Shown: in pieces, positions 4,425-44,980 of the stretch
How the letters are laid out: every line of letters starts with the position of its first letter
Numbering within the stretch: the first letter of the stretch is position 1
Virus record (IMG/VR): IMGVR_UViG_3300022666_000227
Coordinates: 1-54,176 of that record
Reading direction: 5' to 3' (one strand)
Source: a virus
Taxonomy: Duplodnaviria > Caudoviricetes
DNA length: 54,176 bases
Notes under the pieces: model-generated
What the model was told of the DNA's origin: nothing
The model's input: the letters and a program-made list of their open reading frames with translations, nothing else
Databases searched by the model: none
Made by a program: the position numbers and the translations under genes

Positions 4425-6281
4425 ATGATAACTAGAAAATCAACAATAACAAAAGATGATACATTTTCATACGTAACAAAGAGTAAGGAAGAATCGACTA
4501 AAGCATATTATTCATTGTTGAATTTAGTTGACAGCTCAAATACTACATATCTTGAGTCTTCAATTTTTGAAGATTGTATCCTGACTAAATATTTAGAGAC
4601 ATATAATTTGGTTAAAAATGTTACATTTAATCAAAAGCTTAATTATATGTTTATAGATTCATTTATATCAGAGAAGTATATAGATAAAAACTTCCATGTG
4701 GATAAAACACTAAACATAGATGTTCTAAATGGCGATTTGACCTTACCAATAAAGGCCAGCTCTAATCTCCCTGTTGCATCTGTAATTATAGAAAATTCAA
4801 GTAATGGAACTATAGGTAGTAGTCTAGGTGAAACAAAGTACGATAATATAAATGACATACTAACAACAGAGTCGTCAAAGCTTTTCGTTTATGAAAAAGT
4901 TGTAAGTGAATTAAATATGTCTGATTTAAATTTTAATATTACACTAAAGCTTAACGAAGAAAGTATCTGTAATGCTATTTATATAAAACTGTATACAGAC
5001 GAAGATGTCAACTACGCAAAAGTAAACAAGGTAAGAATTTCCAAGGATGGGATAACATATAGTGATGTAACCCATATAGATGTATCAGAAAACAAGGCAG
5101 ATAAATATATTAGATTCCTTCCATCGCTAACAAGATACATATCAATTTCTTTTTCACAAAATGCCTACAATGCCATACAGACAAATTTTGGTACAAGATA
5201 TAGATACTCAATAGGGATAAGAGAGATTACACCAAAGAGAATTGAATATGATTATTATGGCGAGTATGTTTCGATTCCATTATCTATGCCAAAGAATGTT
5301 AACAGCTTACATTTTTATACAAAAGATGTGTCAAACGATGATATAAAATATTATATATCTGCAAACAACGGTGGCTTATGGAATGAGCTAACAAAAAATG
5401 GGATTAATATACTAGACAATGAGAAACTAGGATTAGACCCATTATATGATATAGACTCGATTAGGGTTAAAATCTTAATGGATAAGACAGATATAAGTGT
5501 ATCTAATGCATCTAAAACTGAATATTATTCTTATAATTCTGAAGGACGATATATATTAGGTGATACTCCATTAAGCACAAATGCCTATGTAGGCAAACAT
5601 ATTTCATATGGGCCTAAGTTTAAGAATGATATATCTATAGGAAATATAGAATATATTGGAGAGGGAACAATAACAAACCCTACTCAGTTTATTACTCTCA
5701 ATAATGTCCCATATTATGACGGGATAAAGGATGACTTGATTATCGAAATAAATGGAAGTGTAATGGATACTGCATCTTACACTCTCATGAGAGATATAGG
5801 TCCAGAAAACTCAATACTAAAAATAACAAATGGCGCTTTATACGGAGTAACAATATCTGTATATTATAAGCCTTTTGAGTGGAGTGGATCTTTAGGAAAC
5901 ATAATCACGCTTCCTGCAAAACTATTTATTGAAGATAAAAATGACATAACAATATATTCAACACCACCAGCTTCAGGAGAGAGTGTATATATCTTTACAC
6001 CAAATGATTTCGAGATAACTGGACAAGATACAATAAAGCTAAATGAATCAGCATACTCACATTTGAATACATATCAGATATACTTTACTCCAAGCGTAGA
6101 TATAACAGAAAAATTAATTGTAAGTGAAAATATTGTATATCTACATTCACTACAAAATTCATCTCCTAAGACATCAGTTAGAATAGACTATGTATATAAA
6201 AAGTTTGATAATGAAAATGTTATAAAATACTACACACCAATATGCAACGAGTATAAGGTAGAATATATAGGGCTTACATAA
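4425..6281 (+). CDS. large putative baseplate/tail structural protein
   Basis: 618 aa; ISKDGITY and YYISANNGGLW motifs; C-terminal YYTPICNEYKV. Confidence 0.55.
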   Translation: MITRKSTITKDDTFSYVTKSKEESTKAYYSLLNLVDSSNTTYLESSIFEDCILTKYLETYNLVKNVTFNQKLNYMFIDSFISEKYIDKNFHVDKTLNIDVLNGDLTLPIKASSNLPVASVIIENSSNGTIGSSLGETKYDNINDILTTESSKLFVYEKVVSELNMSDLNFNITLKLNEESICNAIYIKLYTDEDVNYAKVNKVRISKDGITYSDVTHIDVSENKADKYIRFLPSLTRYISISFSQNAYNAIQTNFGTRYRYSIGIREITPKRIEYDYYGEYVSIPLSMPKNVNSLHFYTKDVSNDDIKYYISANNGGLWNELTKNGINILDNEKLGLDPLYDIDSIRVKILMDKTDISVSNASKTEYYSYNSEGRYILGDTPLSTNAYVGKHISYGPKFKNDISIGNIEYIGEGTITNPTQFITLNNVPYYDGIKDDLIIEINGSVMDTASYTLMRDIGPENSILKITNGALYGVTISVYYKPFEWSGSLGNIITLPAKLFIEDKNDITIYSTPPASGESVYIFTPNDFEITGQDTIKLNESAYSHLNTYQIYFTPSVDITEKLIVSENIVYLHSLQNSSPKTSVRIDYVYKKFDNENVIKYYTPICNEYKVEYIGLT

Positions 6282-8362
6282 TGATCATAAAAGATATTAT
6301 CAAAAATAACATACTAGATTTCTATATCTATAAGCACTCAAGCCAAGAGAGAATTTGTAAAGATATATATAATCTGAATTCACAAGTAAGTGGCTTTTTG
6401 TCAAATCTATTTATATTTAATACAGTACCTAAAGTAAATAGATTGTCTGAGATGAAAGGTGTTGAGTTTTATGAAACGTTTGAAAAAATAAACTTTATCC
6501 TTAAGTCTATATACGAATGCTCACAAAAGCTAAAGAGTGACTACGACAATATTTATAAGAAGTATAAAGCTTCATATAGCAGGCTAGATAATCTATTCTT
6601 AGAGATACAAGATAGAGCATCAGAACTGCTTGAATATAACTGTATAAATATATCAGTAAAGAAAAGCAATCAGACAGACAACTCTTCCTGCTCAAAGATA
6701 GGGAAATATATTGTATTACCTTTCTTCAGGAAAACAGTGTCTCTATATAATTCTCAAGCAGGAATAGCATGCTCTTCAAATGATGATTTAGTATTTTCAA
6801 ATACTGCTGATATCTCTAGTATTCCTCTAGAGAAATTTGTATCATTCAAAGTTTTATCAAACAAGGATTTGTTTACCTTAGATGTAATAGTATCCATAAA
6901 TGCTACAATAGCGAATATGATATATTTCAAAATGACAAATGAGGTAAGTTCTGTATCTGTAAAACTAAAGAAAGAAAATGCTGTCTTGAAATCATTCTCC
7001 TATAATACGAATGAGATAATTGCCAACTTTTCGCCAATAGAAATTGATAGTGTTGAATTTAGTATTACATGTAGCAATCTCAATAAAGATAAGCCATCTT
7101 CTATACAGATTGAAGATATCCAAATATTCTCTAATATAATTTTTCAAAAATATGGAGCATTTGAATCAAAGTCAAAGAAGATAGAAGACTTCAATAACAT
7201 CAATACCATAACTCTTGAATGCGAAAACTATGGAGACAAGACTAATACAAATACTATTGAAATGGTATCAATGTCTCCTAGTCAGTCTGTAATAAACTAC
7301 AATACGCTACAAGATAACAAGTTAGATATATCACTATATAAATACAAGTATAAGTACGATATATATAATGATGAAACTATCAACAATAATACACAAGAGA
7401 TAACAATTCAGAACAAAGATTTTGTTATCTATTCCTTTGATAATGCTAGCACTTTATGGGATGCAGATATTAAAAGGAGTAAGATTTTATATGGCCTAAA
7501 TGATTATTATTTAAATATAGACGATACTCCAACTGCCGACCAAAGATTCCAAACCTGGACGCTAGCTGGGAACTATTATATTACACATGTTCTTAACTAT
7601 GAAGATGGGGTATATGTCAATATTGGTGCAAAAACCTGTATATTCAATAATAAAGAAGTCACAGGCATTATAAATATTCCCATTGGAATATCAAAGATAA
7701 AAGTGCATGTTAAAGATATAGATCTATTTAAACAAGATAGTGTTCATATATTGTCAAAAGAGAACATATTAAATGATAACCTATATCCATACAACTTCAT
7801 GTATTTATTTGCAGGATTGCCTGAATACAATAATAGCGGAATTATTTCAAGAGTAACAAGAGGACCGTACTCAAAAGAAGAAAGTAAACTGATATCTTTG
7901 AGAGAGTCATTTATACCATTCACAGAAATAGTTTTAGACGATGTAGGAAGAAGGTATTCTTTACAGCTAACACGGACAACTGATATCCCAGGAACTTATA
8001 CAATAGAGCCTTATGCTGGAAATATAAGAGTTGTGCCTTTCGAATCAGCAAACAGTATTACAATTTCATTCATTAAAGCCCAGTATAATTATAAGCCTTG
8101 TGGAATACTATTTAATCGTTTATTAACATATGCGCCAATTGAAACAGTCTTAACAAATGATAATTCTGAATTATTTAGTTTAGACGGAAGCTCTATAGAA
8201 AGAGCTATAATCCTACCAAAGATTGTTCCTCAAGCAAACTCATCTCAAATAATATTCAATAAATCAGATGAATCATTATATGTTTCTACAAGAATAGAAC
8301 TACAGTCAATAGATAAATATCTTACTCCTATATTAAGCGATATTTATTTACAAACGAGATAA
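6281..8362 (+). CDS. large putative baseplate/tail structural protein
   Basis: 693 aa, coupled via TAATG; C-terminal YLTPILSDIYL. Confidence 0.55.
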   Translation: MIIKDIIKNNILDFYIYKHSSQERICKDIYNLNSQVSGFLSNLFIFNTVPKVNRLSEMKGVEFYETFEKINFILKSIYECSQKLKSDYDNIYKKYKASYSRLDNLFLEIQDRASELLEYNCINISVKKSNQTDNSSCSKIGKYIVLPFFRKTVSLYNSQAGIACSSNDDLVFSNTADISSIPLEKFVSFKVLSNKDLFTLDVIVSINATIANMIYFKMTNEVSSVSVKLKKENAVLKSFSYNTNEIIANFSPIEIDSVEFSITCSNLNKDKPSSIQIEDIQIFSNIIFQKYGAFESKSKKIEDFNNINTITLECENYGDKTNTNTIEMVSMSPSQSVINYNTLQDNKLDISLYKYKYKYDIYNDETINNNTQEITIQNKDFVIYSFDNASTLWDADIKRSKILYGLNDYYLNIDDTPTADQRFQTWTLAGNYYITHVLNYEDGVYVNIGAKTCIFNNKEVTGIINIPIGISKIKVHVKDIDLFKQDSVHILSKENILNDNLYPYNFMYLFAGLPEYNNSGIISRVTRGPYSKEESKLISLRESFIPFTEIVLDDVGRRYSLQLTRTTDIPGTYTIEPYAGNIRVVPFESANSITISFIKAQYNYKPCGILFNRLLTYAPIETVLTNDNSELFSLDGSSIERAIILPKIVPQANSSQIIFNKSDESLYVSTRIELQSIDKYLTPILSDIYLQTR

Positions 8363-8363
8363 A

Positions 8364-8642
8364 ATGGAAACTACTAAATATTTAGAAAAAGAATTCCTGT
8401 CTGAAGATGAGATAATAGACAGGAGCATAAAGACAAGAACTATCAATAATATAGCTGAAAAAATTAAAGACTTAAATACAAGAACTACTGATCCACAACT
8501 AATAGCTATGTTAGGATCCTTATCAAACTTGTTAAAAGATGCTTATGTTATTGATATGTATAAATTTCAATTTAAAATATTTACTTTAGCAATTCAGAAA
8601 GAGATATCTGCAATTCAAGAAGTAATTAGCGCAGAAGTATAA
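8364..8642 (+). CDS. hypothetical protein
   Basis: 92 aa helical-looking ORF tightly packed in the operon. Confidence 0.6.
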   Translation: METTKYLEKEFLSEDEIIDRSIKTRTINNIAEKIKDLNTRTTDPQLIAMLGSLSNLLKDAYVIDMYKFQFKIFTLAIQKEISAIQEVISAEV

Positions 8643-8644
8643 TA

Positions 8645-9487
8645 ATGATAAAAGAAATATTAGAGAAATATATAGAGAACAGAAAGAATAAACCGCTAGA
8701 GCATAGAGATAGGCTTTATCCAACATTTGCATCATGCTATGTAACATTTTCTAAATATAAAAGATTATATGGGAAATGTATGAGAGCAGCATATTATTCA
8801 TGCATAGGCGAAGAAGAGAGTACAGAGCCTGGGCTAAACTTATCCATGCAGAGAATGCTGGGAGAATATACAGAAAAAATGATTTTAGATTGTCTTAAAA
8901 GACAAGACAGCCTAAAAGATAAAAATGTACCATTCGCAGTAGATAAGTATAATATTTATGGTAAACTAGATGGAATAGTTTTATATAATGGAAAAGAGTA
9001 TGGTCTAGAAATAAAGAGTATAAGTGGAGCAAATGCTTATATAAATTATTTAATATTCGAAAACAATAATCCAAGATGGCAAGATTTATTTCAGACTATT
9101 ATATACTGCTATGCCTTTAGAGATACCTTACCTAATGGTTTTATACTCTTCTATATACGAAGAGATACCGGAGATATAAAAGAAATAACAGTACAAGTAG
9201 AGCCATATAACAATGAGCTTTCTGTAATAATCGATGGTAAAGTAGAATCAAGATATAAAGTAAAAGACTTATTAGATAGATATGTAACACTCTATAAATA
9301 TATACAAGCAAATAAGGTTCCACCTAGAGAATATATAGATATTTATCCAGTAGATATGATACCAGATTATTACAAACTTGGTATATTATCAAAAAAACAG
9401 GTTGATGCATATAACATAAAACCATTTGGAGATAGCGCCTGTATATATTGCGGGTACAAACACCTTTGTAAAAATGAGGAAAAATAA
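8645..9487 (+). CDS. Cas4-like / RecB-type PD-(D/E)XK exonuclease
   Basis: N-terminal KCMRAAYY, GKLDGI...LEIKS nuclease motif, QxxxY (QTIIY), C-terminal CIYCGYKHLC: 1+3 Cys cluster pattern of Cas4/AddB. Confidence 0.8.
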   Translation: MIKEILEKYIENRKNKPLEHRDRLYPTFASCYVTFSKYKRLYGKCMRAAYYSCIGEEESTEPGLNLSMQRMLGEYTEKMILDCLKRQDSLKDKNVPFAVDKYNIYGKLDGIVLYNGKEYGLEIKSISGANAYINYLIFENNNPRWQDLFQTIIYCYAFRDTLPNGFILFYIRRDTGDIKEITVQVEPYNNELSVIIDGKVESRYKVKDLLDRYVTLYKYIQANKVPPREYIDIYPVDMIPDYYKLGILSKKQVDAYNIKPFGDSACIYCGYKHLCKNEEK

Positions 9488-10272
9488 TGAGAATAAACTG
9501 GTCTAAAGATAATGGAGTTGCCTATATTTATAATAGTAATAGTGCAACAAGGACTTATATAAATACTGATAATGCTACAAAAATAGATAGCGATCTTTCA
9601 AATGCTACTCCTTTAGATATTTTTAATGGTGAGTACATTATGATTAATCTTCCTGTAGCAATAAGCTTATCAGCAATAAAAGCAAAAATGACACCTAGTG
9701 TATCTGGTCAAATAGCTCAATGCTCACTAGATTCTACAGATGGAATAGATGGCACATGGATAGATTTACTAGATAATCAATCTTATACAGGCCTAGAATA
9801 TAAAACATACACAACAACACCAACAAATTGCAAATGGATCAGACTAGGTCCAGTTGATTCATTATTTGCATTTCATATATTTGGTGAATATCAAAACCCT
9901 AGGTTTGAGGTGTGGAGTGCAGATGGTCTGTCAGAACTAACAGGTGACTATCCATTAGGGGTACAAGATATTCCAAATTCTTATGACTATACAGATAGGG
10001 CAAGATTTAAAATTAAAAATCTAGACATATATGCACATTCATATAGCGTAACAATTACACCAGTAAGATATGGTGGAGATTCTGTTATAGCTGATTACTG
10101 TACTGTATCTAAAGATAATGGAGCAACAAAAACCTCAACCCTGACCGTTTCAAATGTACAACCAAATTCATTATCGACTGAAACTATAGATGTGTGGATA
10201 GATATAACATCGGCCAATAATACAGCAGATGGATATCATTACTATTCCATAAGTATTGAAGAGCTTGTTTAA
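9487..10272 (+). CDS. putative virion protein, possible galactose-binding/discoidin-like domain
   Basis: SLDSTDGIDGTW...CKWIRL pattern; Ser/Thr-rich; structural context. Confidence 0.45.
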   Translation: MRINWSKDNGVAYIYNSNSATRTYINTDNATKIDSDLSNATPLDIFNGEYIMINLPVAISLSAIKAKMTPSVSGQIAQCSLDSTDGIDGTWIDLLDNQSYTGLEYKTYTTTPTNCKWIRLGPVDSLFAFHIFGEYQNPRFEVWSADGLSELTGDYPLGVQDIPNSYDYTDRARFKIKNLDIYAHSYSVTITPVRYGGDSVIADYCTVSKDNGATKTSTLTVSNVQPNSLSTETIDVWIDITSANNTADGYHYYSISIEELV

Positions 10273-10287
10273 TAACGGAGATTTTAT

Positions 10288-11277
10288 ATGGCAAGAGAAT
10301 TTATAGATGGATTTGAGACAGGGAGCATGCACCTATGGGACTATGCCTCTGTAGGATGGCAAATAAGAGAAGCGTTAAATATGGCAGGGGGTTCATACTG
10401 TGCATGGAGTGATGACGGGAGTCTTGCATATAAAAACTTAACCTCAAGAACTGAGTATTATGGTGCGATGAAGTTTAAAAGACAATGGACAAATGGTACA
10501 GAACCAGTGCTTTTAAAATTTGCAAATAACTCTACAATATTAGCAACAATAACTGCATCACTATCAGATCCAGGACTTATTAAGATTTATAGAGGAGACT
10601 CTACAAACCTAATTGCGACAGGAAGTATTCCTACGCCAATTACAACCTCATTTATATTAGAATGGAATTATAAGCCAGCAACAGATGCAACTGGAAAGTT
10701 TATATTAAAAATAAATGGAGCTATTGACCCTAATCTTAATCTGACAAACATACAGACATCAAACAATGCATTAAATATAAATAGAGTATATATTGGATTT
10801 AGGAATTCAAGTTCTTGGGATGATTTTGTTATAGATTCTTCCGAATGGGTAGGAACAACAAAAATAGCTGCACTTACTCCAGTATCAGATGGGAATAGTA
10901 CACAATTTACACCATCCGTAAGTGGCTCTTCTCATTATTCTCTTGTTGATGAAATAGGACCATCCGATACAGATTATGTTTATACAAACTCTGCAGACGT
11001 AATAGATACATATGCTATATCAAACCTACCATCTGATGCAAGTATTATAAAAAGTGTTGTAGCATGCCTTAGGGGTAAATATGATGGAGTCCCAACTCCA
11101 ACAAAGATAGCTCCAGTGTTTAGAATAAATGGGACAGACTATGCTGGAAGCGATATTCCAATGACATCAGTATCTGCAACATATTACCAGATATATAGTA
11201 CAAGTCCAGCAACAAGTAATCCATTCACGGTTAATGAAGTTAACAGCTTAGAAAGTGGAATTAAGGCGAGAGTATAA
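10288..11277 (+). CDS. putative receptor-binding/adhesin protein (ConA/LamG-like N-domain), paralog A
   Basis: Starts MAREFIDGFETG; LKINGAID...WDDFVID lectin-like pattern; paralogous to next gene. Confidence 0.55.
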   Translation: MAREFIDGFETGSMHLWDYASVGWQIREALNMAGGSYCAWSDDGSLAYKNLTSRTEYYGAMKFKRQWTNGTEPVLLKFANNSTILATITASLSDPGLIKIYRGDSTNLIATGSIPTPITTSFILEWNYKPATDATGKFILKINGAIDPNLNLTNIQTSNNALNINRVYIGFRNSSSWDDFVIDSSEWVGTTKIAALTPVSDGNSTQFTPSVSGSSHYSLVDEIGPSDTDYVYTNSADVIDTYAISNLPSDASIIKSVVACLRGKYDGVPTPTKIAPVFRINGTDYAGSDIPMTSVSATYYQIYSTSPATSNPFTVNEVNSLESGIKARV

Positions 11278-12260
11278 TGAGAGAATTTATAGACGGTTTT
11301 GAAACTGGAAATTTTAGCCTTTGGGATGCTCGGGATGGTTATAATGACAATATCTCTATTGTTGCTGGATTTACGTCTGCAGGCGGAAGCAAGGCTCTCT
11401 ACCTGCAATCTCCTGGTAGATATCTTCAAAAGTATTTGACAGCAAGGGATGAATATTATGTTGCTTTTCTTTATAAGTTTAATGTATTAGATACCGCTGG
11501 TAACTTCTTTAACTTCATGAATGGCTCTACAATTCTTGGCTCATTATATCATGGCTATAATGCAACTGTATTGACTGCAACAAAAGGCCCTTCATTCACT
11601 TCATTAGGTGTAGGTACAAAACAGTTTACTTCTGGACAAGAACTTTTAATTGAAATAAATTATAAACCTGCAACTGATGCTACAGGTAAATTTATTGTTA
11701 AGATCAATGGAATTATTGATTTGAATTTGACAAATATCATAAGTGCAAGTAATGCACTCCAAATTGATAGAATTCAAATTGGAGGAAATGTTCATAATAC
11801 AGCTTGTGATAATATAATAGTTGATAGTTCAGAATGGATTGGAAATACTAAAATTACAGGGGTGACGCCTAGTGCATCTGGTAATTATACACAATGGACT
11901 CCATCTGCAGGAGATAATTATGATTGTGTAAATGAAATACCAGCTTCAGATACAGATTATGTCTCTACAAATACAATAGACATGATTGATACATATGCTA
12001 TGGGAAATATGCCTTCAGAGGCAGTTAGCATAAAATGTGTATCGAGTCACTTTAGAGCAAAAACAGAGGGTGCTCCCACTCCAACAAAAATAGCCCCAGT
12101 ATTTAGGATTGGGGGAACAGACTATATAGGAACAGAAAATATAATAAGCACTAGCTTCTTATCATATTCACAGGTTTGGGAAAATAATCCAGCGACCTCT
12201 TCATCTTGGGCTGTTAACGAAGTTAACAGTTTAGAAGGTGGAGTTAAATCGAGGGCATAA
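11277..12260 (+). CDS. putative receptor-binding/adhesin protein, paralog B
   Basis: Starts MREFIDGFETG; shares NYKPATDATGKFI, SDTDYV, PTPTKIAPVFRI, VNEVNSLE with paralog A. Confidence 0.55.
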   Translation: MREFIDGFETGNFSLWDARDGYNDNISIVAGFTSAGGSKALYLQSPGRYLQKYLTARDEYYVAFLYKFNVLDTAGNFFNFMNGSTILGSLYHGYNATVLTATKGPSFTSLGVGTKQFTSGQELLIEINYKPATDATGKFIVKINGIIDLNLTNIISASNALQIDRIQIGGNVHNTACDNIIVDSSEWIGNTKITGVTPSASGNYTQWTPSAGDNYDCVNEIPASDTDYVSTNTIDMIDTYAMGNMPSEAVSIKCVSSHFRAKTEGAPTPTKIAPVFRIGGTDYIGTENIISTSFLSYSQVWENNPATSSSWAVNEVNSLEGGVKSRA

Positions 12261-13258
12261 TGGCAGATCAAATTTTAATATCTCAACTAGTAGATCAAGT
12301 AGAATACCAGGGAGCATCTGGCATATATCTTTCCCAGCTAGCTGACCAGGTTGAATATCTAGGACCATCAGGCATTTATACTTCCCAGAATATATTACAG
12401 GTAGAATACAAAGCCTACCCCAATATGACCTTTACAGGTGGGATTAATCTTGAAAATACTGCAATAGACAAAGGAAGCTTGGTCGGAGGAGCCAAGCTGC
12501 TAAATAACAAGAACAAGATATCTAATCTTGTTGGCGGATTTAATTTAGCAGACTCTCCATTATTTTTAACATTAAACTACTATACTCCATCTGCAAGTGG
12601 CATATATGTAACCCTATCAGGAACAGCATATAGTGCATCAACTCTGACAATCAACGATTCATCAGATAACATAACAAGAGACAGTGATAACTGGTCTTCA
12701 GTTGTTAAGCTTATCCCATATGAAACAGCTACGTTTATAATAAAGGCAGAATTCGAAGGTATTGCACTATATAAAACTGCAAAAATATATTGCGAACCAT
12801 CTTTAAGTTTTTCTCTCAGCATAAAGCCTTCAAGAATAGTAATGACGGAACTTTTAATAGACGAAGATACCGTTATTATAGACGATCCTACAGTTTTCAC
12901 AACATCACTAAGGCCTACTATAACAAACCTAACACAGACACCATTACGTGCGAAATATGGCTATTATGATATTGAATTCTTGATTGAAGATTTAAATGTT
13001 GATGATTCATCTACTTTGGTTTTTGTTGAGGATAGAGAAACAATAACAGTTATAGATACAGAGCAATCTCTATTATATAAAATCTATTACAATATAGACT
13101 TAGCACCATTAGGGAAAGATACGGAAACTTTATTAAATGGCATAACATTTATGTACAATACATACAGCAATGATGCTGACAGAAAACAGATATATGAATA
13201 TGTCATCGATGAAAATAAATATGTTATACATAAAGCACGAAAGATGAATATCTTATAA
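12260..13258 (+). CDS. virion protein with N-terminal 3x17-aa SQxxxQVEY repeats
   Basis: ISQLVDQVEY-QGASG / LSQLADQVEY-LGPSG / TSQNILQVEY, then three (F/L)xGGxxL repeats; TAATG coupling to paralog B. Confidence 0.6.
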   Translation: MADQILISQLVDQVEYQGASGIYLSQLADQVEYLGPSGIYTSQNILQVEYKAYPNMTFTGGINLENTAIDKGSLVGGAKLLNNKNKISNLVGGFNLADSPLFLTLNYYTPSASGIYVTLSGTAYSASTLTINDSSDNITRDSDNWSSVVKLIPYETATFIIKAEFEGIALYKTAKIYCEPSLSFSLSIKPSRIVMTELLIDEDTVIIDDPTVFTTSLRPTITNLTQTPLRAKYGYYDIEFLIEDLNVDDSSTLVFVEDRETITVIDTEQSLLYKIYYNIDLAPLGKDTETLLNGITFMYNTYSNDADRKQIYEYVIDENKYVIHKARKMNIL

Positions 13259-13270
13259 AAAGGTTTAGAC

Positions 13271-15361
13271 ATGAGATTCGATTTAGAGATACATAAAGTT
13301 TCAGAATTAGATCATGAAGGACTGAAGTATATATCAGAAGTATTATATAATAATAGTGACAATACAATACTGCCAGCCTTATATGACAGGAAAACATTAT
13401 TCTACTCCTCTTTGTCAAATAGAGGAAAGATAAATACAGACTCTTTCAATAACTTCAAAGAAGTTCCAACCTACTTATTCCAATCATACATAGACAAAGA
13501 TATAAGTATTTTTGATACAGTTCCACATGCCTCTATTATTTATCCATTTTTTAATGGAGGCACATTCTATTCATGTAATAAAAAGTTTGTATGGTCAGAT
13601 CTATATATTAAGCAACCAATTTCTTATAATGAGATAGATGGATACTATAAGTTTGAGATGACAGATGATGTGATAGAGAACTCTATATCAATATACACTT
13701 TGGCATTTTTACATCCAGGATATATAGATAAGAGTAAAGAGTTTGTATTTAGAGAGTTCAGCACATCACTAAAGAATACTTTTTCAAACACAAAAGAAGA
13801 TTATTTATATACAATCTACAACAATGCCATATATTTAAATGTAAAGAAAATAGAGTATAGTGATTATATTATTGGACAATCAACTGAGACCAGTAGAGCT
13901 TTCCCATTGCCAGAATTTCCTGTTGTTGATGTATCTGTAAATGGATTTTCACAATCAGAATATACAATAATAAGTGGGCTATTAACATTTAATCAGGATA
14001 GCTCTTTGATTGCGGGAGAAACAATTAAGATCTCCTGTGTAGCAACCCCTGTTATATCGTATAAAAGATCAACTGATGTAAGATCAAATATAGTATCTTT
14101 AAATGACAGTATTACACCAAACTCACTAGGTTTTGAGAATGGTATATTATGTATTTATAACTCATACAACAATGTCAATATTCCATCTAACATAACGTTG
14201 GAGGTTGAGACTGTAAATGAATATAACAATATTTTTAAGCTTACATCAAGGCTAGAAAATAGCTTAGGCATCCCAATAAAAAATAAGAGTATTGAATTTA
14301 ATATATTAGATGAAGGCGCTCTTTTTAGTGCAACAAATAGCAACAAATTTACTGGAACAACAGCTATGAATGGAGAGGTTTCTTGTACTCTATTTAGTGA
14401 TTTTTCTAATGCTGGCATTTATATACAAAAAGAATGGGTTGATGGTACAGTTCTAACTATCCCAAAAGATATAAATATAGATAATATAGATAATGCATTT
14501 TTGTATATTGTTACAAATGACGATCCTATTCTTGGTAAGACATATTCTTATGGATATGAAGCCCCAATTACAGAATGGTATAAAGATCTAGATGTTTCAT
14601 CATACTATGTTTCAGGAAGGAAGATTGCTTACATAGAACTTGTAAATAACAACGGAAGGCTAGAGCAAAAATATTGCAAGCCAGTATCAGCAACAAAGGT
14701 AGAAAACAAGAGTATATTGTTTAGGAATTTATTTGTTGAAAAACAAGAATATACAATACTAAGCAACATAACAGACGCAACATATGATTCAGATCTAGTG
14801 ATAGATACATCAATGTATAAAAGCGGGAGTATTCCTTTTAACAGAATTCAACTATACAGTAGAGAGATTCCTGTTTGCACAGAGCTTGATTTTGGGAAGT
14901 CTATTCCAAAGACAAGTACTGTAAGTGGATACTATTTAGTTCTTAACAAGACCATAAGGGTTCAGACTACACATAAAGATGCAGAATTTTCAATATCCTC
15001 AGACATAAAAGATATTTTGATAAGGAATATCAAATCAGAATCTCCTTTCATAATTAGCGGTATAGCAATCAAAGATAGAAATACAGCACTAAATGATTTA
15101 GGATATTATACAGTATCAGACTATATACAGAATGAGTATAATCTATATCCTTGTACTTATGGATGTATTTACTCTGATGTTATTGATAAAAAGTGTAACA
15201 ATAAAAACAAAAGCTATCAAACATACTATCAGCCAGATAGCAATAATACAATGTGCATACACACACCAGAGTACGATGCAACACTTGAAGAACAAGATAG
15301 GTGTCCAGGATTAGATGCAAGAATAACAAACCCATTTGTATTACCAGTAGAAGGAGAATAA
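13271..15361 (+). CDS. large putative structural protein (Ig-like middle, Cys-rich C-terminus)
   Basis: 696 aa; begins MRFDLEI; ENSLGIPIKNKSIEF...TTAMNGEV Ig/Big-like motif. Confidence 0.5.
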   Translation: MRFDLEIHKVSELDHEGLKYISEVLYNNSDNTILPALYDRKTLFYSSLSNRGKINTDSFNNFKEVPTYLFQSYIDKDISIFDTVPHASIIYPFFNGGTFYSCNKKFVWSDLYIKQPISYNEIDGYYKFEMTDDVIENSISIYTLAFLHPGYIDKSKEFVFREFSTSLKNTFSNTKEDYLYTIYNNAIYLNVKKIEYSDYIIGQSTETSRAFPLPEFPVVDVSVNGFSQSEYTIISGLLTFNQDSSLIAGETIKISCVATPVISYKRSTDVRSNIVSLNDSITPNSLGFENGILCIYNSYNNVNIPSNITLEVETVNEYNNIFKLTSRLENSLGIPIKNKSIEFNILDEGALFSATNSNKFTGTTAMNGEVSCTLFSDFSNAGIYIQKEWVDGTVLTIPKDINIDNIDNAFLYIVTNDDPILGKTYSYGYEAPITEWYKDLDVSSYYVSGRKIAYIELVNNNGRLEQKYCKPVSATKVENKSILFRNLFVEKQEYTILSNITDATYDSDLVIDTSMYKSGSIPFNRIQLYSREIPVCTELDFGKSIPKTSTVSGYYLVLNKTIRVQTTHKDAEFSISSDIKDILIRNIKSESPFIISGIAIKDRNTALNDLGYYTVSDYIQNEYNLYPCTYGCIYSDVIDKKCNNKNKSYQTYYQPDSNNTMCIHTPEYDATLEEQDRCPGLDARITNPFVLPVEGE

Positions 15362-15364
15362 TGA

Positions 15365-16558
15365 ATGGCTTCATATATGTTTACAAAATTACTACCAAAG
15401 GATGTATCATTTGTTAGAGGAGAATCTCCTTCTCCTGACAAGCTAAATGGTATATTCAACCAACTATCATCTGCAATGTTTGTTTTAGAATCTTTCTTGG
15501 GTAACGGAATAGATTATAGAATTACAGATGATGGCGATAGAAAGATGTTGTTTAATCTATCCTCTGCAATAGGAAGGGTAGATAAATTATATAAACCCAC
15601 TAATAGACTCCCAGATTTACGAAGGATCTTTAAGAAATATGGTGGCGTATATGGTACATGGGACAGCATAAATAAAACACTAGAGTTTACAGGACCAGTT
15701 ATGACACCGGCTAATCTTGAACCAGGGGATAAGCTTGCGATGTATTATACTGGAGAACCTGTAATAAATGTAAATGGTACAGACTATCCACTGGCTGCGA
15801 AAGCTGAGTTTGGGTGGTCCACACTTAATATTACCGATAGTGTAGACTACATCATTACGGCTCCTGCATCTGGACAGTCGCTTGTTGTAAAAAGTTTTTA
15901 TATTTCAGATACCTTTGATGATGATGAGTGCTATAATACAGGTTATTCTTTGCCATTAGCTAATGCAACATACTATAGCGTAAAGACACCATGCGTATAC
16001 TCGAGCCCTTCAGCTTCAGGAAATGCTAATATATGTGCAAACAAAACATGCAATTATTGCATAGGCAATACATATAACTATGATCTAAATGACTCAATTT
16101 CATATGGATCACCTATATGTTCTGGAGCAAGGAATTTAGACAACGAGCTTATAACATATACTGCAGAAGTGGGAAATTTAAGAGCTACATACCTTACATT
16201 ACAATGTCCTCTTAATACCACAGAGAACTCATATGCCTTAAAATATAGACCATTCTCAATGCATTCAAACATTGTTGATAGTCAGATTATGCTAAATCAG
16301 TGCATGATATATGACATCAAAGACGCTGTGTCACCAGTCAAATATAACACTTATCTATATTCTGCTGGAGGAGTAGACGGTAATGTAAGAGGTGACATTT
16401 TCTATGTCACAGACAACCTAACTATTCAGGCAGGCGATAATAAAAGATATATTGTACTAGGTGGAAGCTATGGAATGATTGATCTATTATATGATATGAT
16501 TCAGTTTGTAGAGAAGCCTATTCCTCCAGTATTAAGCTCTGCTGTATATGATATTTAA
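15365..16558 (+). CDS. putative tail structural protein
   Basis: FVRGESPSPDKLN N-terminal fibre-attachment-like motif; Cys cluster. Confidence 0.5.
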   Translation: MASYMFTKLLPKDVSFVRGESPSPDKLNGIFNQLSSAMFVLESFLGNGIDYRITDDGDRKMLFNLSSAIGRVDKLYKPTNRLPDLRRIFKKYGGVYGTWDSINKTLEFTGPVMTPANLEPGDKLAMYYTGEPVINVNGTDYPLAAKAEFGWSTLNITDSVDYIITAPASGQSLVVKSFYISDTFDDDECYNTGYSLPLANATYYSVKTPCVYSSPSASGNANICANKTCNYCIGNTYNYDLNDSISYGSPICSGARNLDNELITYTAEVGNLRATYLTLQCPLNTTENSYALKYRPFSMHSNIVDSQIMLNQCMIYDIKDAVSPVKYNTYLYSAGGVDGNVRGDIFYVTDNLTIQAGDNKRYIVLGGSYGMIDLLYDMIQFVEKPIPPVLSSAVYDI

Positions 16559-16570
16559 TAGAGAGGATAT

Positions 16571-18172
16571 ATGAGATTTGATTTAGAAATACCTCAATTT
16601 AATATAGATGTATGTTTTATAAAAAATGGAGATAGTATTCCAAATGTAGCAGTACCAACCTACTACATTAAAATAAACTCTTCTGACAAAATACCTTCAG
16701 ACTATGTTACATATGATAATTATTATTCGGAAGAAGATCATCTATATAATGGGTATGAAATTAAAAACGGTCCATATTTAGATAACATAAAGTCATCTAA
16801 ATTTCTCATTACAAACATTGCTAAATTTTCCTTAGTGAGAAATACAAAGATGCCATTATTTTATAGACATTTTATCCCTGTAATAATAAAACAAGAGGGC
16901 ATAATTATAGAAGACTATTATGGGACTATTGTACCTTCAGAAGACTATCTGATAGATTACAGTGATAATGGCACATATGTATACATGAATAAGACAAGCA
17001 AAGTTCTCTTCATAAAGTATGCATTAAACAATAGTTCAAGAAAAGAGCTTTTAAACCTTTTGCCAGTTTTTGAAGAAGCAGAATGGTCTGACATTCAAGC
17101 AAATCAAATACTCAAGCCTAATAAATATATATACAGAGAAGGCGCAATAGACACATCATATAATGGAGAGTTATATATAACATACTTAAGCAATACAGGA
17201 TTGTTTAGGCCTCCTCTTGGTAACATAGACGATCCTTGGTACATTGGAATATTAAACTGTGAATTAACAATAGATGATAATATTTACAAGATACCAGAGT
17301 ATTACTTTCAGCAGATGAATGCAGACGGAAAATATAAATTTGTTGAATTTAAAAAGTGCAAAAAGATATACAACAGATATGTAAAGTCACAGTACAATAT
17401 CCATGATAAATACTATGATGACATTTATCTTTATATAAAGGATGGAAATACCAATAAGGTAAAGTATGCCTTTTCATATAATAAATCTAAAATTGGTACA
17501 ATCTACAAAGACAATATTGTTTATGGAGAGTTAAAATTCTACAATAACGATGGAGTAATAGAGAGTCCAGTTGAGATACTCGATACTGATGAGGTATTTG
17601 CCTCACATTATACAAGAGAGAATTATTATGAATATAATCTTCTTGATATAAAATCACTAAACTTAAATAGCTTTAATTATTATGCGATATATATTAAGCC
17701 AAATGTTACAGAAGGAAGATCTGTTTTCCATGCTATAATTGGTGACAGAAAAGATGAAGATGATCAAAACTTATACTTCAACTCATTTGACGAATATAAA
17801 GCATACATAGATAATGAGGATAGAAAATATTATCATGTAGGAATTTTTAATACACTATTTAAAAAAGACGATATTGCACTATTAAGTGTACTAGATCAAG
17901 ATACAGTAATGCTATCAAAAGAAGAAATAGCTAATATAAATGTAGATATGTTATATTATGATGTTTTAAATAATAAAATTAACATTCCAGCAAATGATGC
18001 AGTAATCGTTTCAATGGATACCTCAAAGCTGCAAGATAAGGGGATTATACAACAGGATAATAATGGTGTAATCGACAATAGCAGTAAAGACTATATTAGA
18101 ATACTTGAAGGTTATACAACAAGAACCTTACAAGTATCTACAAAATCTATATATGAAATAATAAAGGATTAA
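16571..18172 (+). CDS. large putative structural protein
   Basis: 533 aa; begins MRFDLEI like 13271; GAGG RBS. Confidence 0.5.
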   Translation: MRFDLEIPQFNIDVCFIKNGDSIPNVAVPTYYIKINSSDKIPSDYVTYDNYYSEEDHLYNGYEIKNGPYLDNIKSSKFLITNIAKFSLVRNTKMPLFYRHFIPVIIKQEGIIIEDYYGTIVPSEDYLIDYSDNGTYVYMNKTSKVLFIKYALNNSSRKELLNLLPVFEEAEWSDIQANQILKPNKYIYREGAIDTSYNGELYITYLSNTGLFRPPLGNIDDPWYIGILNCELTIDDNIYKIPEYYFQQMNADGKYKFVEFKKCKKIYNRYVKSQYNIHDKYYDDIYLYIKDGNTNKVKYAFSYNKSKIGTIYKDNIVYGELKFYNNDGVIESPVEILDTDEVFASHYTRENYYEYNLLDIKSLNLNSFNYYAIYIKPNVTEGRSVFHAIIGDRKDEDDQNLYFNSFDEYKAYIDNEDRKYYHVGIFNTLFKKDDIALLSVLDQDTVMLSKEEIANINVDMLYYDVLNNKINIPANDAVIVSMDTSKLQDKGIIQQDNNGVIDNSSKDYIRILEGYTTRTLQVSTKSIYEIIKD

Positions 18173-18176
18173 AGAT

Positions 18177-19106
18177 ATGACATGGACAGATGTACCAATA
18201 GTTGCTCATATAACAAGAATTAGGAAAATACATATTGATGAAATAAGAGCTGCCATAGATGGACACTTCGGAACTGGAGGATCAACCCATCCAAATGCTA
18301 CACAGTCCGTATCAGGCTTTATGTCATCTACAGACAAACAAATACTAGATGGATTAGCTATCACTGCAGGAACAATTATAGCAGTTACAGGATCTTTGCC
18401 AATTGTATCAAGTGGTGGAACTACACCAAATATATCTATATTAACAGCATCTGCATCTGGCATGGGAGCAATGAGTGCAGCGGATAAGATTAAATTAGAC
18501 TCTATAGATATGGCAGGGGTAGGAATAGGGTCTTTAAATGTAACAGCTCCTATCACATCTACTGGTGGTTCTAGCCCTACTCTTGGTATTTTACCAGCTT
18601 CTCAGTCTGCAGCTGGATCTATGAGCCTAGAAGATAAAACAAAGCTAGATAATATGGCAGCTACACCAAAGGGAACAGTGTTAATGTTTTACCCTCCTGC
18701 TCCATATGCAATAACAGATTATTTTGACCTTGGAACAGGGAGAGGAAAGTCCATTGCTCAAGGTGGAGTTGTGGACATGTCTCAGTGGAGTATTTGTAAT
18801 GGGATGAATGGTACTCCAAATCTTATAGATAGATTCCCTCTTGGAGCAGGGAACAAGGCGCTCGGAGTAACTGGTGGGGAAGCAGAGGTTAAACTAACAG
18901 AGGCTACTATGCCTACACATACCCATAGCTTAAATCATGTAAGTGCTCCAGTAGCAATGTCATTACAAATAACTTACCAAGATCAAGTTGTTCCAGCATC
19001 AGACTTACCAATAGGAGATTTCCCCGTAGAACCAGCAGGTGGAGATCAGGCACATAACAATATGCCACCATATTTAGTTCTATGGTTTATAATGAGAACA
19101 CATTAA
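18177..19106 (+). CDS. tail fibre protein with collar-like C-terminal domain
   Basis: Repeats MSxxDKxxLD and PIxSxGGxxP; WSICNGMNGTPNLIDRFPLGAG...MPTHTH...AHNNMPPY collar/tip motifs. Confidence 0.75.
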   Translation: MTWTDVPIVAHITRIRKIHIDEIRAAIDGHFGTGGSTHPNATQSVSGFMSSTDKQILDGLAITAGTIIAVTGSLPIVSSGGTTPNISILTASASGMGAMSAADKIKLDSIDMAGVGIGSLNVTAPITSTGGSSPTLGILPASQSAAGSMSLEDKTKLDNMAATPKGTVLMFYPPAPYAITDYFDLGTGRGKSIAQGGVVDMSQWSICNGMNGTPNLIDRFPLGAGNKALGVTGGEAEVKLTEATMPTHTHSLNHVSAPVAMSLQITYQDQVVPASDLPIGDFPVEPAGGDQAHNNMPPYLVLWFIMRTH

Positions 19107-20775: not shown

Positions 20776-21330
20776 ATGGAAACAATAGATAGAGAAAAAT
20801 TTTTTAATGAATATAGAAATGTTTTTGGACCACTAAAGCAAAGTCAGGTTGATGGCATCTCATCTATACTTAATTGCCTTGAAGGTGATGAAGCAGTCAG
20901 TAAAGTTGAATGGGCAGCATATATGTTTGCAACAGTGAAACATGAGACAGCTGGAACATATCAACCAATTGAAGAATATGGAAAAGGCAAAGGTAGGAAA
21001 TACGGTATACGATCTGCTAACGGAAAAACCTATTATGGAAGAGGTTACGTCCAGCTTACATGGGAAGCTAACTATTCTACAATGGGTAAATATGTAAAGC
21101 AAGACTTAGTAGCACATCCAGAGAAAGCTCTAGACCCTTCTGTTGCATATTCAATTATGTCAATAGGAATGAGGAAAGGACTTTTTACAGGAAAGAAACT
21201 AGGGGATTATATCAAAGAAGGTGTCACCGATTATAAGAACGCAAGACGAATTATAAACGGGATGGACTGTGCAGAGTTGATAGCAAAATATGCTACTAAG
21301 TTTGAAGGGATATTGAAAGCTTCAATATAA
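20776..21330 (+). CDS. endolysin, glycoside hydrolase family 19-like (lysozyme fold)
   Basis: AYMFATVKHET, YYGRGYVQLTWEANY, ARRIING motifs. Confidence 0.9.
   Translation: METIDREKFFNEYRNVFGPLKQSQVDGISSILNCLEGDEAVSKVEWAAYMFATVKHETAGTYQPIEEYGKGKGRKYGIRSANGKTYYGRGYVQLTWEANYSTMGKYVKQDLVAHPEKALDPSVAYSIMSIGMRKGLFTGKKLGDYIKEGVTDYKNARRIINGMDCAELIAKYATKFEGILKASI

Positions 21331-43805: not shown

Positions 43806-44980
<1,175 letters not shown>

What the first reader, a model, noticed from the sequence alone, without database searches (positions are those of the whole stretch)
10288..12409. Possible donor-strand-complementation hub: a repeat protein supplying the missing last beta-strand to upstream adhesins
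Seen: both paralogs stop abruptly at the same point (NSLESGIKARV*, NSLEGGVKSRA*). The next, translationally coupled gene starts with three 17-aa units I(L/Y)xSQxxxQVEY joined by G(A/P)SG linkers (12272-12409). My unverified recollection is that related phage jelly-roll domains continue after 'ALExGVK' with a final strand like '(S/T)QxxxEVEY'. Inference: each repeat docks into and completes one adhesin domain in trans, as in pilus donor-strand exchange. That would give a plug-in branched receptor-binding array with up to three heads per hub.
Basis: inference. Interest (0 to 1): 0.75.

Follow-up and report, generated by a model that had tools for sequence, protein, structure and literature searches.

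The report
Repeat scaffold beside phage lectin-like tail proteins
Two sugar-binding-type phage tail proteins are followed by a gene that starts with three short repeats, a pairing seen in many other phages, so the repeats are probably docking sites for such proteins rather than a missing piece of their fold.

Summary
The sequence facts hold. Two paralogs (329 and 327 aa, 46% identical) end at the same point. The overlapping next gene opens with three 17-aa units ..SQxxxQVEY.

The "missing last strand" idea does not hold. The paralogs belong to a huge unnamed phage family (9531 cluster representatives). Its members nearly all end at this same point, and AlphaFold2 models paralog 2 as a complete two-domain protein (pLDDT 95.9): a ConA/LamG-like jelly roll plus a conserved C-terminal beta-sandwich.

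The link between the family and the repeats is real. In 31 of 43 informative non-redundant IMG/VR loci, a gene within 500 nt of the family gene carries two to five such 17-aa-periodic units. These sit at the N-terminus, inside, or at the C-terminus of otherwise unrelated proteins. Some of these proteins are only 65-86 aa long.

One natural protein (P0108) fuses one unit to a family member through a 130-aa Pro/Thr linker. AF2 models that unit as a confident strand paired to the fold.

Best reading (about 0.45): the repeats are docking strands that bind the family's C-domain by edge-strand addition, making a multivalent lectin array on the tail tip. Binding itself is not shown. Repeat number does not track paralog number.

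The parts
10288..11277 (+). Paralog 1 (329 aa). It has an N-terminal ConA/LamG-like jelly roll plus a conserved C-terminal beta-sandwich and belongs to an unnamed phage family.
   Evidence: ORF. It matches phrog_2448 (E 1.2e-17) and phrog_6368 (E 3e-17), with both alignments running to the end of the profile. It is 46% identical to paralog 2 and scores E 4e-97 against the family HMM.
11277..12260 (+). Paralog 2 (327 aa), with the same architecture. The N-domain is roughly residues 1-185 (11277-11831) and the C-domain roughly residues 190-327 (11844-12257).
   Evidence: It matches phrog_6368 (E 1.1e-23). The AF2 model has pLDDT 95.9 and pTM 0.92. The N-domain scores Z 18.1 against glucuronan lyase 2zzj and sialidase 5mqs. 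The library holds 9531 representatives at E<=1e-3.
12030..12086 (+). Candidate docking edge strand and loop of paralog 2 (residues 252-270, SIKCVSSHFRAKTEGAPTP; family consensus IKCVQVQAR...EG.PTP).
   Evidence: This is an inference. In the AF2 model of the natural fusion P0108, the equivalent stretch (406-421) is one 16-residue strand. It is the only strand long enough to pair with the docked 15-residue N-terminal unit. In the unit-free paralog 2 model the stretch is a 7-residue strand plus loop. No coordinates could be inspected.
12260..13258 (+). Repeat-bearing 'hub' protein (332 aa). Outside the repeats it is an orphan.
   Evidence: ORF. It has no Pfam or PHROG family. It has no relative in GenBank phages or in IMG/VR. 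In the 5.8-billion-protein collection it matched only itself.
12269..12421 (+). Three 17-aa repeat units (12269-12319, 12320-12370, 12371-12421), each with the core (S)Q-x3-Q-V-E-Y, joined by G(A/P)SG turns.
   Evidence: Searches show the units. They align with the N-terminal repeats of 17 neighbour proteins from other loci, where the E of QVE in units 1 and 2 is invariant and the first Q nearly so.
11275..11279 (+). TAATG stop/start overlap between paralog 1 and paralog 2.
   Evidence: Read from the sequence.
12258..12262 (+). TAATG stop/start overlap between paralog 2 and the hub gene.
   Evidence: Read from the sequence.

Best explanation
The region encodes a lectin-type adhesin module of a phage tail.

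Shown:
- The two paralogs are complete two-domain proteins of a very large, unnamed phage family. The N-domain is a variable ConA/LamG-like carbohydrate-binding or lyase-like jelly roll. The C-domain is a more conserved beta-sandwich.
- The next gene starts with three 17-aa units. These units are a conserved companion of the family in many phages.

Inferred:
- Each unit is an extended beta-strand that docks onto the conserved C-domain of one family protein. It would add to an edge strand of an already complete sheet, probably the IKCVQVQAR..EG.PTP segment.
- One hub chain would therefore carry several lectin heads, here up to three drawn from two paralogs.
- The rest of the hub (a tail-tip domain, another binding domain, or only a short tail in the smallest versions) would tie the array to the virion.

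It would work like a scaffoldin or a branched receptor-binding-protein assembly. It is not pilus-type donor-strand complementation.
For: (1) Family and fold.
- Both paralogs match PHROG families end to end.
- The family has 9531 representatives at E<=1e-3.
- The AF2 model has pLDDT 95.9.
- The N-domain matches ConA-like lyases, lectins and carbohydrate-binding modules at Z 13-18. These include phage baseplate and tailspike chains 8zdo_a (Z 15.0), 9vyh_q (Z 14.2) and the evolved-Dit CBM 5ly8 (Z 13.4).

(2) Association of repeats with the family.
- Periodic motif pairs (spacing 15-21 aa) occur in 35 of 857 ORFs lying within 500 nt of a family gene, against 1 of 3441 other ORFs in the same loci. 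That one ORF lies 1012 nt from a family gene.
- At locus level, 31 of 43 non-redundant IMG/VR loci with at least 300 nt downstream have such a gene. Units are N-terminal in 23, internal in 6 and C-terminal in 2.
- By eye, a further 6 loci have one unit or degenerate units (L005, L037, L042, L047, L056, L058).
- More distant relatives keep the same layout. Brevundimonas phage Strzyga has 2 paralogs followed by a DUF2460 (Dit-like) protein with about 14 short repeats. Achromobacter phage AchV4 has 3 paralogs followed by gp28 with about 11 repeats.
- A reverse scan of IMG/VR for two in-phase units gave 42 pattern matches. I judged 15 of them in-frame and motif-like by eye. Of these, 12 have a family gene within 916 nt, but only 2 of those 12 come from contigs not already in the first set.

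(3) The repeats look like the working part.
- Proteins of 65-86 aa consist of 2-4 units plus a short tail (L011, L013, L015, L021, L028, L039).
- Single units sit between Pro/Thr linkers (L005; P0108).
- The other domains attached to the repeats vary: fn3, Laminin_G_3 with F5/8 type C, Sipho_Gp37, and DUF2460.

(4) Docking.
- In the AF2 model of the natural protein P0108 (one unit, a 130-aa Pro/Thr linker, then a family member), residues 3-17 form a 15-residue DSSP strand with pLDDT about 85, while the linker scores below 50.
- C-domain strand 406-421 is lengthened compared with the paralog 2 model.

(5) Conservation. The C-domain is more conserved than the N-domain: 41% against 31% mean pairwise identity over 2000 random pairs. 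This is what a shared docking module beside a variable binding head would show.

(6) Virion presence. Two family members of AchV4 (gp25, gp26) were found in virions by LC-MS/MS (PMC7996906, passages and Table 1).

(7) Weak and confounded by phylogeny.
- Loci whose units read QVE mostly have Q at family positions 256 and 258 (18 of 22 and 13 of 22).
- Loci whose units read E-V-D/E or E-x-L have Q258 in 0 of 10, and K or R at position 256 in 4.
- R260 is lost in L050 and L053-55, whose units lack the acidic residue.
Against: - No physical or structural evidence of binding exists. No coordinates of the P0108 model could be inspected, so the pairing partner of its N-terminal strand is inferred from DSSP strings only.
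- That model is an in-cis prediction for one distant family member (33% identical to paralog 2).
- In AchV4 the proteomics table lists gp25 and gp26 but not the third paralog gp27 or the repeat-bearing gp28. In that relative the scaffold was therefore not shown to be in virions.
- Repeat number does not follow paralog number.
- The window's own paralogs lack the Q256 and Q258 residues that go with QVE-type units elsewhere.
- Five informative loci have a family gene but no repeats in the neighbouring genes examined (L024, L033, L041, L048, L049). The same holds for roseophage DSS3phi2 and the 595-kb uncultured phage. The family can therefore exist without the repeats.
- A mutual-information scan between unit positions and family columns did not single out the C-domain: of the top 60 pairs, 34 fell in the N-domain and 26 in the C-domain.
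Confidence: 0.45

Rival explanations
1. The repeats are an anchor for the hub itself. They dock the variable downstream protein onto a different tail-tip component, such as Dit, the tail tube end or a hub protein. The family gene is only a neighbour within the same adhesion-device cassette.
For: - The repeats sit mostly at the extreme N-terminus behind a conserved MAD(Q) start, as known N-terminal anchor peptides do.
- P0108 and the 1000-aa protein of L031 place units in front of family-type domains, as if the units anchor those domains to something else.
- AchV4 virions contain family proteins, yet gp28 was not listed.
- In L094 the gene upstream of a three-unit protein is not a family member.
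Against: - The 65-86-aa proteins would be anchoring almost nothing.
- Units also occur inside or at the C-terminus of proteins.
- The tight and nearly exclusive adjacency to the family gene, across otherwise unrelated cassettes, is not explained.
- The AF2 model of P0108 pairs the unit with the family fold.
Confidence: 0.25
2. The repeat protein is an assembly scaffold or chaperone. It holds family proteins, or is held by them, during tail morphogenesis and is absent or rare in the finished virion.
For: - AchV4 gp28 is not in the LC-MS/MS table, while gp25 and gp26 are.
- The genes are tightly coupled in translation.
Against: - Many repeat-bearing proteins carry typical virion surface domains (fn3, LamG, discoidin) or tail-tip domains (DUF2460, Sipho_Gp37).
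- Non-detection in one proteome is weak evidence.
Confidence: 0.1
3. The 17-aa units associate with each other to build a short fibrous beta-structure, for example a trimeric shaft. They do not bind the family protein.
For: - The period is regular (17 aa), with Pro or Gly at the unit borders as in fibrous phage repeats.
- Three units is the commonest count: 14 of the 27 single-family-gene loci that carry units.
Against: - Single units flanked by disordered Pro/Thr linkers occur.
- Unit counts of 1-2 are common.
- The conserved residues are polar (Q, Q, E) rather than a hydrophobic core pattern.
- This reading does not explain the association with the family gene.
Confidence: 0.1
4. The paralog C-domains are incomplete jelly rolls that lack their last strand, and each repeat supplies that strand in trans, as in pilus donor-strand complementation.
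For: - The association of the repeats with the family is real.
- The unit is strand-like in the P0108 model.
Against: - The AF2 monomer model is complete at pLDDT 95.9, and its final strand 320-326 is the protein's own.
- The stop is the family's native end in 122 of 150 representatives and at both PHROG profile ends.
- No homolog continues into a unit at the C-terminus: 0 of 150 representatives, and none in the search for longer proteins (weak evidence).
Confidence: 0.03

Closest known systems
Branched receptor-binding-protein systems of Klebsiella podophages KP32, K11 and KP34 (branching domain of RBP1 plus a conserved N-terminal docking peptide of RBP2)
   Same: A short conserved peptide at the N-terminus of one tail protein serves as the docking element to a domain of a neighbouring-gene product. 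This gives a branched, modular host-binding device (PMC13352976, abstract read).
   Different: - Here the peptide is a tandem array of 1-5 or more 17-aa units, and it can sit N-terminally, internally or C-terminally.
- The presumed acceptor is the C-domain of a LamG-type family, not a tailspike branching domain. No such domain was detected.
- Binding is not demonstrated here.
Chaperone-usher pilus donor-strand complementation and exchange
   Same: A beta-strand from one polypeptide would join the sheet of another (established knowledge). P0108 resembles a subunit that carries its own N-terminal donor extension.
   Different: - The acceptor fold is predicted to be complete without the strand, so this would be edge augmentation, not completion of a missing strand.
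- There is no chaperone or usher context among the 8 neighbouring proteins scanned.
Cellulosome scaffoldin (cohesin-dockerin)
   Same: The logic is the same: a scaffold with repeated docking sites collects several carbohydrate-active or carbohydrate-binding subunits, each of which carries a conserved docking module (established knowledge).
   Different: - The docking sites here are 17-residue peptides, not about 150-residue cohesin domains.
- There is no sequence relation, with no cohesin or dockerin Pfam match.
- The setting is a virion.
Evolved Dit proteins and Bpp-type adhesion devices of siphophages (for example the CBM2 of phage J-1 evolved Dit)
   Same: - ConA-like or CBM modules are displayed at the tail tip for saccharide binding. 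5ly8 matches the N-domain at Z 13.4, rmsd 3.3, over 170 aligned residues.
- In Strzyga and L040 the repeats lie on Dit-like (DUF2460) and Sipho_Gp37 proteins.
   Different: In evolved Dits the CBM is inserted covalently. Here the lectin-like protein is a separate gene product that would be recruited non-covalently by the repeats.
PilC1/PilC2 C-terminal tails joining the type IV pilus minor-pilin complex by beta-strand augmentation
   Same: A conserved terminal peptide links an adhesin to a fibre by strand augmentation (PMC13711793; title and start of abstract seen in the listing only).
   Different: It belongs to a bacterial pilus rather than a phage tail, it has a single tail rather than tandem units, and there is no sequence relation.

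Membership tests
phrog_2448 / phrog_6368 (unnamed phage family, MARxFIDGFE.G ... E.G.K..A) | Significant match to the family profile that runs to the end of the profile | tested here: met
   Paralog 1 scores 1.2e-17 and 3e-17. Paralog 2 scores 5.1e-17 and 1.1e-23. The alignments end at profile positions 334/335 and 327-328/328. Against the HMM built from 134 representatives the paralogs score 4e-97 and 2e-115.
phrog_2448 / phrog_6368 (unnamed phage family) | Two-domain architecture with conserved N- and C-termini | tested here: met
   The consensus was obtained. The AF2 model shows two domains. Of 150 representatives, 122 end exactly 3 residues after G.K, as both paralogs do.
Concanavalin A-like lectin/glucanase (LamG-like) fold, N-domain | Jelly-roll fold similarity to solved members | tested here: met
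   Model residues 1-193 match 2zzj at Z 18.1 (rmsd 2.8, 185 aligned). They match 5mqs at Z 18.1 and 5gmt at Z 16.8. Foldseek gives 6kcw at E 1.2e-07.
Concanavalin A-like lectin/glucanase (LamG-like) fold, N-domain | Sequence match to Pfam Laminin_G_3 or a related model | tested here: not met
   Both paralogs match 0 Pfam families at E<=0.1.
Concanavalin A-like lectin/glucanase (LamG-like) fold, N-domain | Sugar-binding or lyase catalytic residues | not tested
   No residue-level superposition was available.
Chaperone-usher type donor-strand complementation | Acceptor domain lacks a strand and cannot close its sheet alone | tested here: not met
   The AF2 monomer model is complete, with pLDDT 95.9 and its own last strand at 320-326. 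This is a prediction, not an experiment.
Chaperone-usher type donor-strand complementation | Donor strand supplied by another chain or an N-terminal extension | tested here: inconclusive
   The N-terminal unit of P0108 is modelled as a paired strand with pLDDT about 85. No coordinates were available. No verdict on binding in trans could be obtained with the tools available.
Chaperone-usher type donor-strand complementation | Dedicated chaperone and usher genes | tested here: not met
   None appeared among the 8 proteins of 6281-16558 scanned against Pfam. The rest of the window was not scanned against Pfam.
Branched RBP with docking peptide (KP32 type) | Short conserved N-terminal peptide on the secondary protein | tested here: met
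   The MAD(Q) start and the units are conserved in 18 aligned neighbour proteins.
Branched RBP with docking peptide (KP32 type) | Branching domain in a primary tailspike or fibre that accepts the peptide | tested here: inconclusive
   No Pfam or PHROG match of that kind was found in the paralogs. The fold-search lists are filled by the N-domain, so the C-domain fold was barely tested.
Cohesin-dockerin scaffoldin | Cohesin and dockerin domains | tested here: not met
   No Pfam match was found in the hub or the paralogs.

The most novel reading that the evidence does not exclude
A widespread plug-in system in phage tails that appears undescribed in the papers searched. Tandem 17-residue beta-strand 'sockets' sit on scaffold proteins: tiny adaptors, Dit-like tail-tip proteins or large fibres. 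Each socket captures one lectin-like head through the conserved C-terminal beta-sandwich of a family with thousands of members. The number of units would set the valency, and paralogous heads would mix on one scaffold. The natural fusion of a unit to a head (P0108) would allow the heads to form chains.
Probability: 0.35. Interest if true: 0.8.

Novelty: new variant of a known kind. Interest (0 to 1): 0.62.

Why it matters
If the repeats are docking sites, three things follow.
- A family of "hypothetical proteins" with 9531 cluster representatives would gain a role, as would a short peptide repeat that no library names.
- Phage adhesion devices would gain a scaffoldin-like design principle: valency set by the number of units, and specificity set by exchangeable lectin heads.
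- Annotators would get a simple sequence signature (a family gene followed by 17-aa Q-x3-Q-V-E units) for finding host-binding modules in metagenomic phages.

The claim can be tested directly with peptides and recombinant proteins.

Tried and rejected
- Complex prediction. I submitted paralog 1, paralog 2 and hub residues 1-56, each with its own alignment. The result was no verdict (score 0.01, mark 0.32, controls not run). The tool states that this is neither support for nor evidence against binding.
- Relatives of the hub protein. There was no match in GenBank phages or IMG/VR. The 5.8-billion-protein collection returned only the protein itself. Outside the repeats it is an orphan.
- Fused long homologs of paralog 2. 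None scored among 4421 candidates. The tool itself calls this weak evidence.
- Profile of the repeat region against longer proteins. It found 13 proteins, all unnamed, so no annotation was gained.
- PDB sequence searches. The family profile gave only a chance-level hit (E 0.3). The repeat profile gave nothing below E 0.45. No solved relative exists by sequence.
- C-domain fold. Both fold searches were filled by the N-domain.
- Covariation between unit residues and family columns over 32 pairs. The signal was spread over both domains and is confounded by phylogeny. I rejected it as a test and kept only the descriptive reading.
- HMM iteration on the units. It was too conservative for counting degenerate units, and one iteration failed on a file format. 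Counts in this report use the regex, plus reading by eye where stated.
- The search for related loci with large alignments. I replaced these with a 20-sequence alignment and a degenerate DNA pattern.
- Literature. I searched 'donor strand' + bacteriophage + baseplate, 'strand augmentation' + phage + tail, DUF2460 + phage, the string AQVEY, and a six-term adhesion-device search. None of the listed titles or abstract openings describes this family or these repeats.
- Earlier-findings look-up.
Full report
**What is there**

The window is a 54-kb, 31% G+C phage contig. It carries a rightward tail and lysis block. That block includes proteins matching tail collar fibre and tail fibre families at 1008-1895, 18177-19106 and 19121-20473, and an endolysin at 20776-21330. 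A leftward replication block follows, with RNR, primase-helicase and DNA polymerase.

Inside the tail block lie ORFs 10288-11277 (329 aa) and 11277-12260 (327 aa). They are 46% identical paralogs. Each is joined to the next gene by a TAATG overlap.

ORF 12260-13258 (332 aa) starts MAD, followed by three 17-aa units with the core SQ-x3-QVEY. The units are far beyond chance: 1 of 20000 shuffles gave a single match, against three observed. They are conserved as protein, not as a recent DNA duplication.

**The paralogs are whole, not truncated**

- Neither paralog has a Pfam family.
- Both match phrog_2448 and phrog_6368 right to the end of those profiles.
- A search of 1.84 billion cluster representatives found 9531 relatives at E<=1e-3.
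- The 150 best typically start MARxFIDGFE.G. Of these, 122 of 150 end exactly three residues after the G.K motif, as both paralogs do.
- AlphaFold2 with 134 sequences gives pLDDT 95.9 and pTM 0.92. The model has an N-terminal jelly roll (about residues 1-185) and a C-terminal beta-sandwich whose last strand (320-326) is the protein's own C-terminus.
- The N-domain is ConA/LamG-like. It matches glucuronan and alginate lyases, sialidase lectin modules and calreticulin at Z up to 18.1. It also matches phage chains 8zdo_a, 9vyh_q and 5ly8 at Z 13-15.

So the "missing last strand" premise fails. No relative continues past the common end into a unit: 0 of 150 representatives, and none in a search for longer proteins (weak evidence).

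**The repeats are a conserved companion of the family**

This is the main positive result. A 20-sequence profile retrieved 56 IMG/VR loci. In most of them, the gene that starts just after the family gene begins MAD(Q) followed by 17-aa-periodic units such as KVSQVxAQVEY (alignment).

- With a regex for the core and a spacing of 15-21 residues, periodic pairs occur in 35 of 857 ORFs within 500 nt of a family gene. They occur in 1 of 3441 other ORFs of the same loci, and that one ORF lies 1012 nt from a family gene.
- After removing duplicate loci, 49 remain. Of these, 43 have at least 300 nt downstream, and 31 of the 43 have such a gene.
- Of the 12 misses, six show one unit or degenerate units by eye (L005, L037, L042, L047, L056, L058). 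One has the units two genes away (L046). Five show none (L024, L033, L041, L048, L049).
- Units are N-terminal in 23 loci, internal in 6 and C-terminal in 2.
- A reverse scan of IMG/VR for two in-phase units gave 42 pattern matches. Fifteen have in-frame stops, 12 are low-complexity or otherwise unlike the units, and 15 are motif-like (my judgement by eye). Of these 15, 12 have a family gene within 916 nt. Two lie at truncated loci. One (L094) has a different gene upstream. Only four of the 15 come from contigs not seen before, so this check is only partly independent.
- More distant cultured phages keep the same layout with divergent repeats. Strzyga has the order TMP, two paralogs, then an 816-aa protein with a glycine-rich domain, about 14 short repeats and a DUF2460 Dit-like domain. 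AchV4 has three paralogs followed by gp28 with about 11 repeats.

**What the repeats are attached to**

The attached parts are almost arbitrary:
- nothing but a 20-28-aa tail, in 65-86-aa proteins (L011, L013, L015, L021, L028, L039);
- fn3, Laminin_G_3 plus F5/8 type C, or Sipho_Gp37;
- DUF2460;
- family-type jelly rolls (L031);
- in the window, an orphan 280-aa region.

Single units also occur between Pro/Thr linkers (L005; P0108). This pattern fits a portable docking element better than a structural shaft.

**Does a unit dock on the family fold?**

The complex-prediction job gave no verdict and is set aside (see Tried and rejected).

It reads: one unit, a roughly 130-aa Pro/Thr linker, then a family member.

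- Residues 3-17 come out as one 15-residue DSSP strand with pLDDT about 85, even though the linker scores below 50. A continuous DSSP strand must be hydrogen-bonded to another strand, and the only other structure in the model is the family fold.
- Aligned against the paralog 2 model, the clearest differences lie in the C-domain. The segment equivalent to paralog 2 residues 252-268 becomes a single 16-residue strand, and the strand that opens the C-domain is extended.
- I infer edge-strand augmentation on that segment. I could not inspect coordinates, so the partner strand is an inference.

Two further observations are consistent with this:
- The C-domain is the more conserved half of the family, at 41% against 31% mean pairwise identity.
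- There is a suggestive but phylogeny-confounded pattern. QVE-type units go with Q256 and Q258 on that strand (18 of 22 and 13 of 22 loci). E-type units go with no Q258 (0 of 10) and with K or R at 256 in four loci. R260 is lost where the unit lacks its acidic residue.
- A mutual-information scan was not discriminating.

**Evidence that cuts the other way**

- Unit number does not follow paralog number. Loci with one family gene have 2 units (9 loci), 3 (14), 4 (1) or 5 (3). Loci with two family genes have 4 or 5 units, and loci with three have 3 or 5. "One unit per paralog" is therefore wrong. "One unit per protein copy" remains possible.
- In AchV4, LC-MS/MS found the family proteins gp25 and gp26 in virions. 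Table 1 of that paper stops at gp26, so the third paralog and the repeat protein gp28 are not listed (PMC7996906, passages and table read).
- Some phages have the family without repeats.
- The window's own paralogs lack Q256 and Q258.

**Conclusion**

With high confidence, the finding is a genuine and widespread two-part module: a lectin-like tail protein family plus a repeat-bearing neighbour.

With moderate confidence (about 0.45), the repeats are docking strands for the family's C-domain. The hub would then be a scaffold that displays several lectin heads at the tail tip.

Rivals are:
- an anchor to another tail component (0.25);
- an assembly-only scaffold (0.1);
- a self-associating fibre (0.1);
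- strict donor-strand complementation (0.03).

**Comparison with known systems**

In logic it works like the docking-peptide and branching-domain pairs of Klebsiella podophages (PMC13352976, abstract) and like a scaffoldin. It is a member of neither. The searches returned no paper describing the family or the repeats. No solved structure is related by sequence. I rate it a new variant of a known kind.

Noticed in passing
window 8645-9487 (+): A 280-aa Cas4-like PD-(D/E)XK nuclease sits in the middle of the tail-gene block. It matches phrog_1706 'CRISPR/Cas system associated' at E 4.2e-21 and more weakly a Cas4-domain exonuclease family. This is an unusual place for a nuclease gene.
   Followed up: no
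window 13271-15361 and 16571-18172 (+): Two large tail-block proteins (696 and 533 aa) share an identical N-terminal heptapeptide, MRFDLEI, and show no other similarity. This may be a second kind of conserved terminal peptide in the same cassette.
   Followed up: partly
window 42198-43727 and 46388-47560 (-): The DNA polymerase is split. The two ORFs match phrog_405 profile positions 625-1082 and 43-440. They are separated by about 2.6 kb holding three ORFs (43806-44747, 44954-45718, 45929-46384). This could be an intervening element or a naturally split polymerase.
   Followed up: no
window 12425-12560 (hub residues about 56-100): Directly after the three units, the hub has three spaced 'x-(T/V)-G-G' segments (FTGG, LVGG, LVGG). 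Similar GG-rich stretches follow the units in L004, L007 and L020. This may be a second conserved element of the hubs.
   Followed up: no
L011:8979-9227, L015:8979-9227, L021:8974-9171, L013:8986-9234, L019:9002-9904: The tiny repeat proteins end in short conserved tails. One type is ..LLRHG.WF....K.RFWWAR (L011, L015, L021). The other is ..GKR.FPV(V/I)(I/V) (L013, and the C-terminus of the 300-aa L019 protein). These could be a second docking peptide at the other end of the adaptor.
   Followed up: no
L006:8698-9894, L014:8988-11195, L019:9002-9904, L026:7577-9787, L070:654-2699: A second conserved neighbour family was seen, with an N-terminus like M(A/P)TR(F/L)YF.. and the motif ..AQTISG.VKGQ. 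It carries two or three units internally, at about residue 210-260, after a roughly 200-aa domain.
   Followed up: partly
L030:7995-9053, L031:7995-9056 and L031:6883-7980: These family proteins end in a 15-18-residue poly-Thr/Ser tail just before the stop. For L030:7995-9053 and L031:7995-9056 the repeat gene starts 10-18 nt later, and its own units are followed by another poly-Thr linker. This might be the trace of a former fusion, or recoding. It was not examined.
   Followed up: no
L002:3129-5579 (Brevundimonas phage Strzyga): The 816-aa protein after the two paralogs combines three parts. The first is an ALK/LTK-type glycine-rich domain (PF12810, E 6.7e-12). The second is about 14 short repeats of two types (..K.x.GY..L.. 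and ..G.EV..). The third is a DUF2460 Dit-like domain (PF09343, E 1.6e-28).
   Followed up: partly
P0084, P0131, P0141 (family representatives): Some family members carry insertions. P0084 has a roughly 150-aa extra domain just before the last strand. P0131 has a Pro/Ser-rich linker inside the N-domain. P0141 has a roughly 130-aa insertion in the C-domain. The fold evidently tolerates added modules.
   Followed up: no
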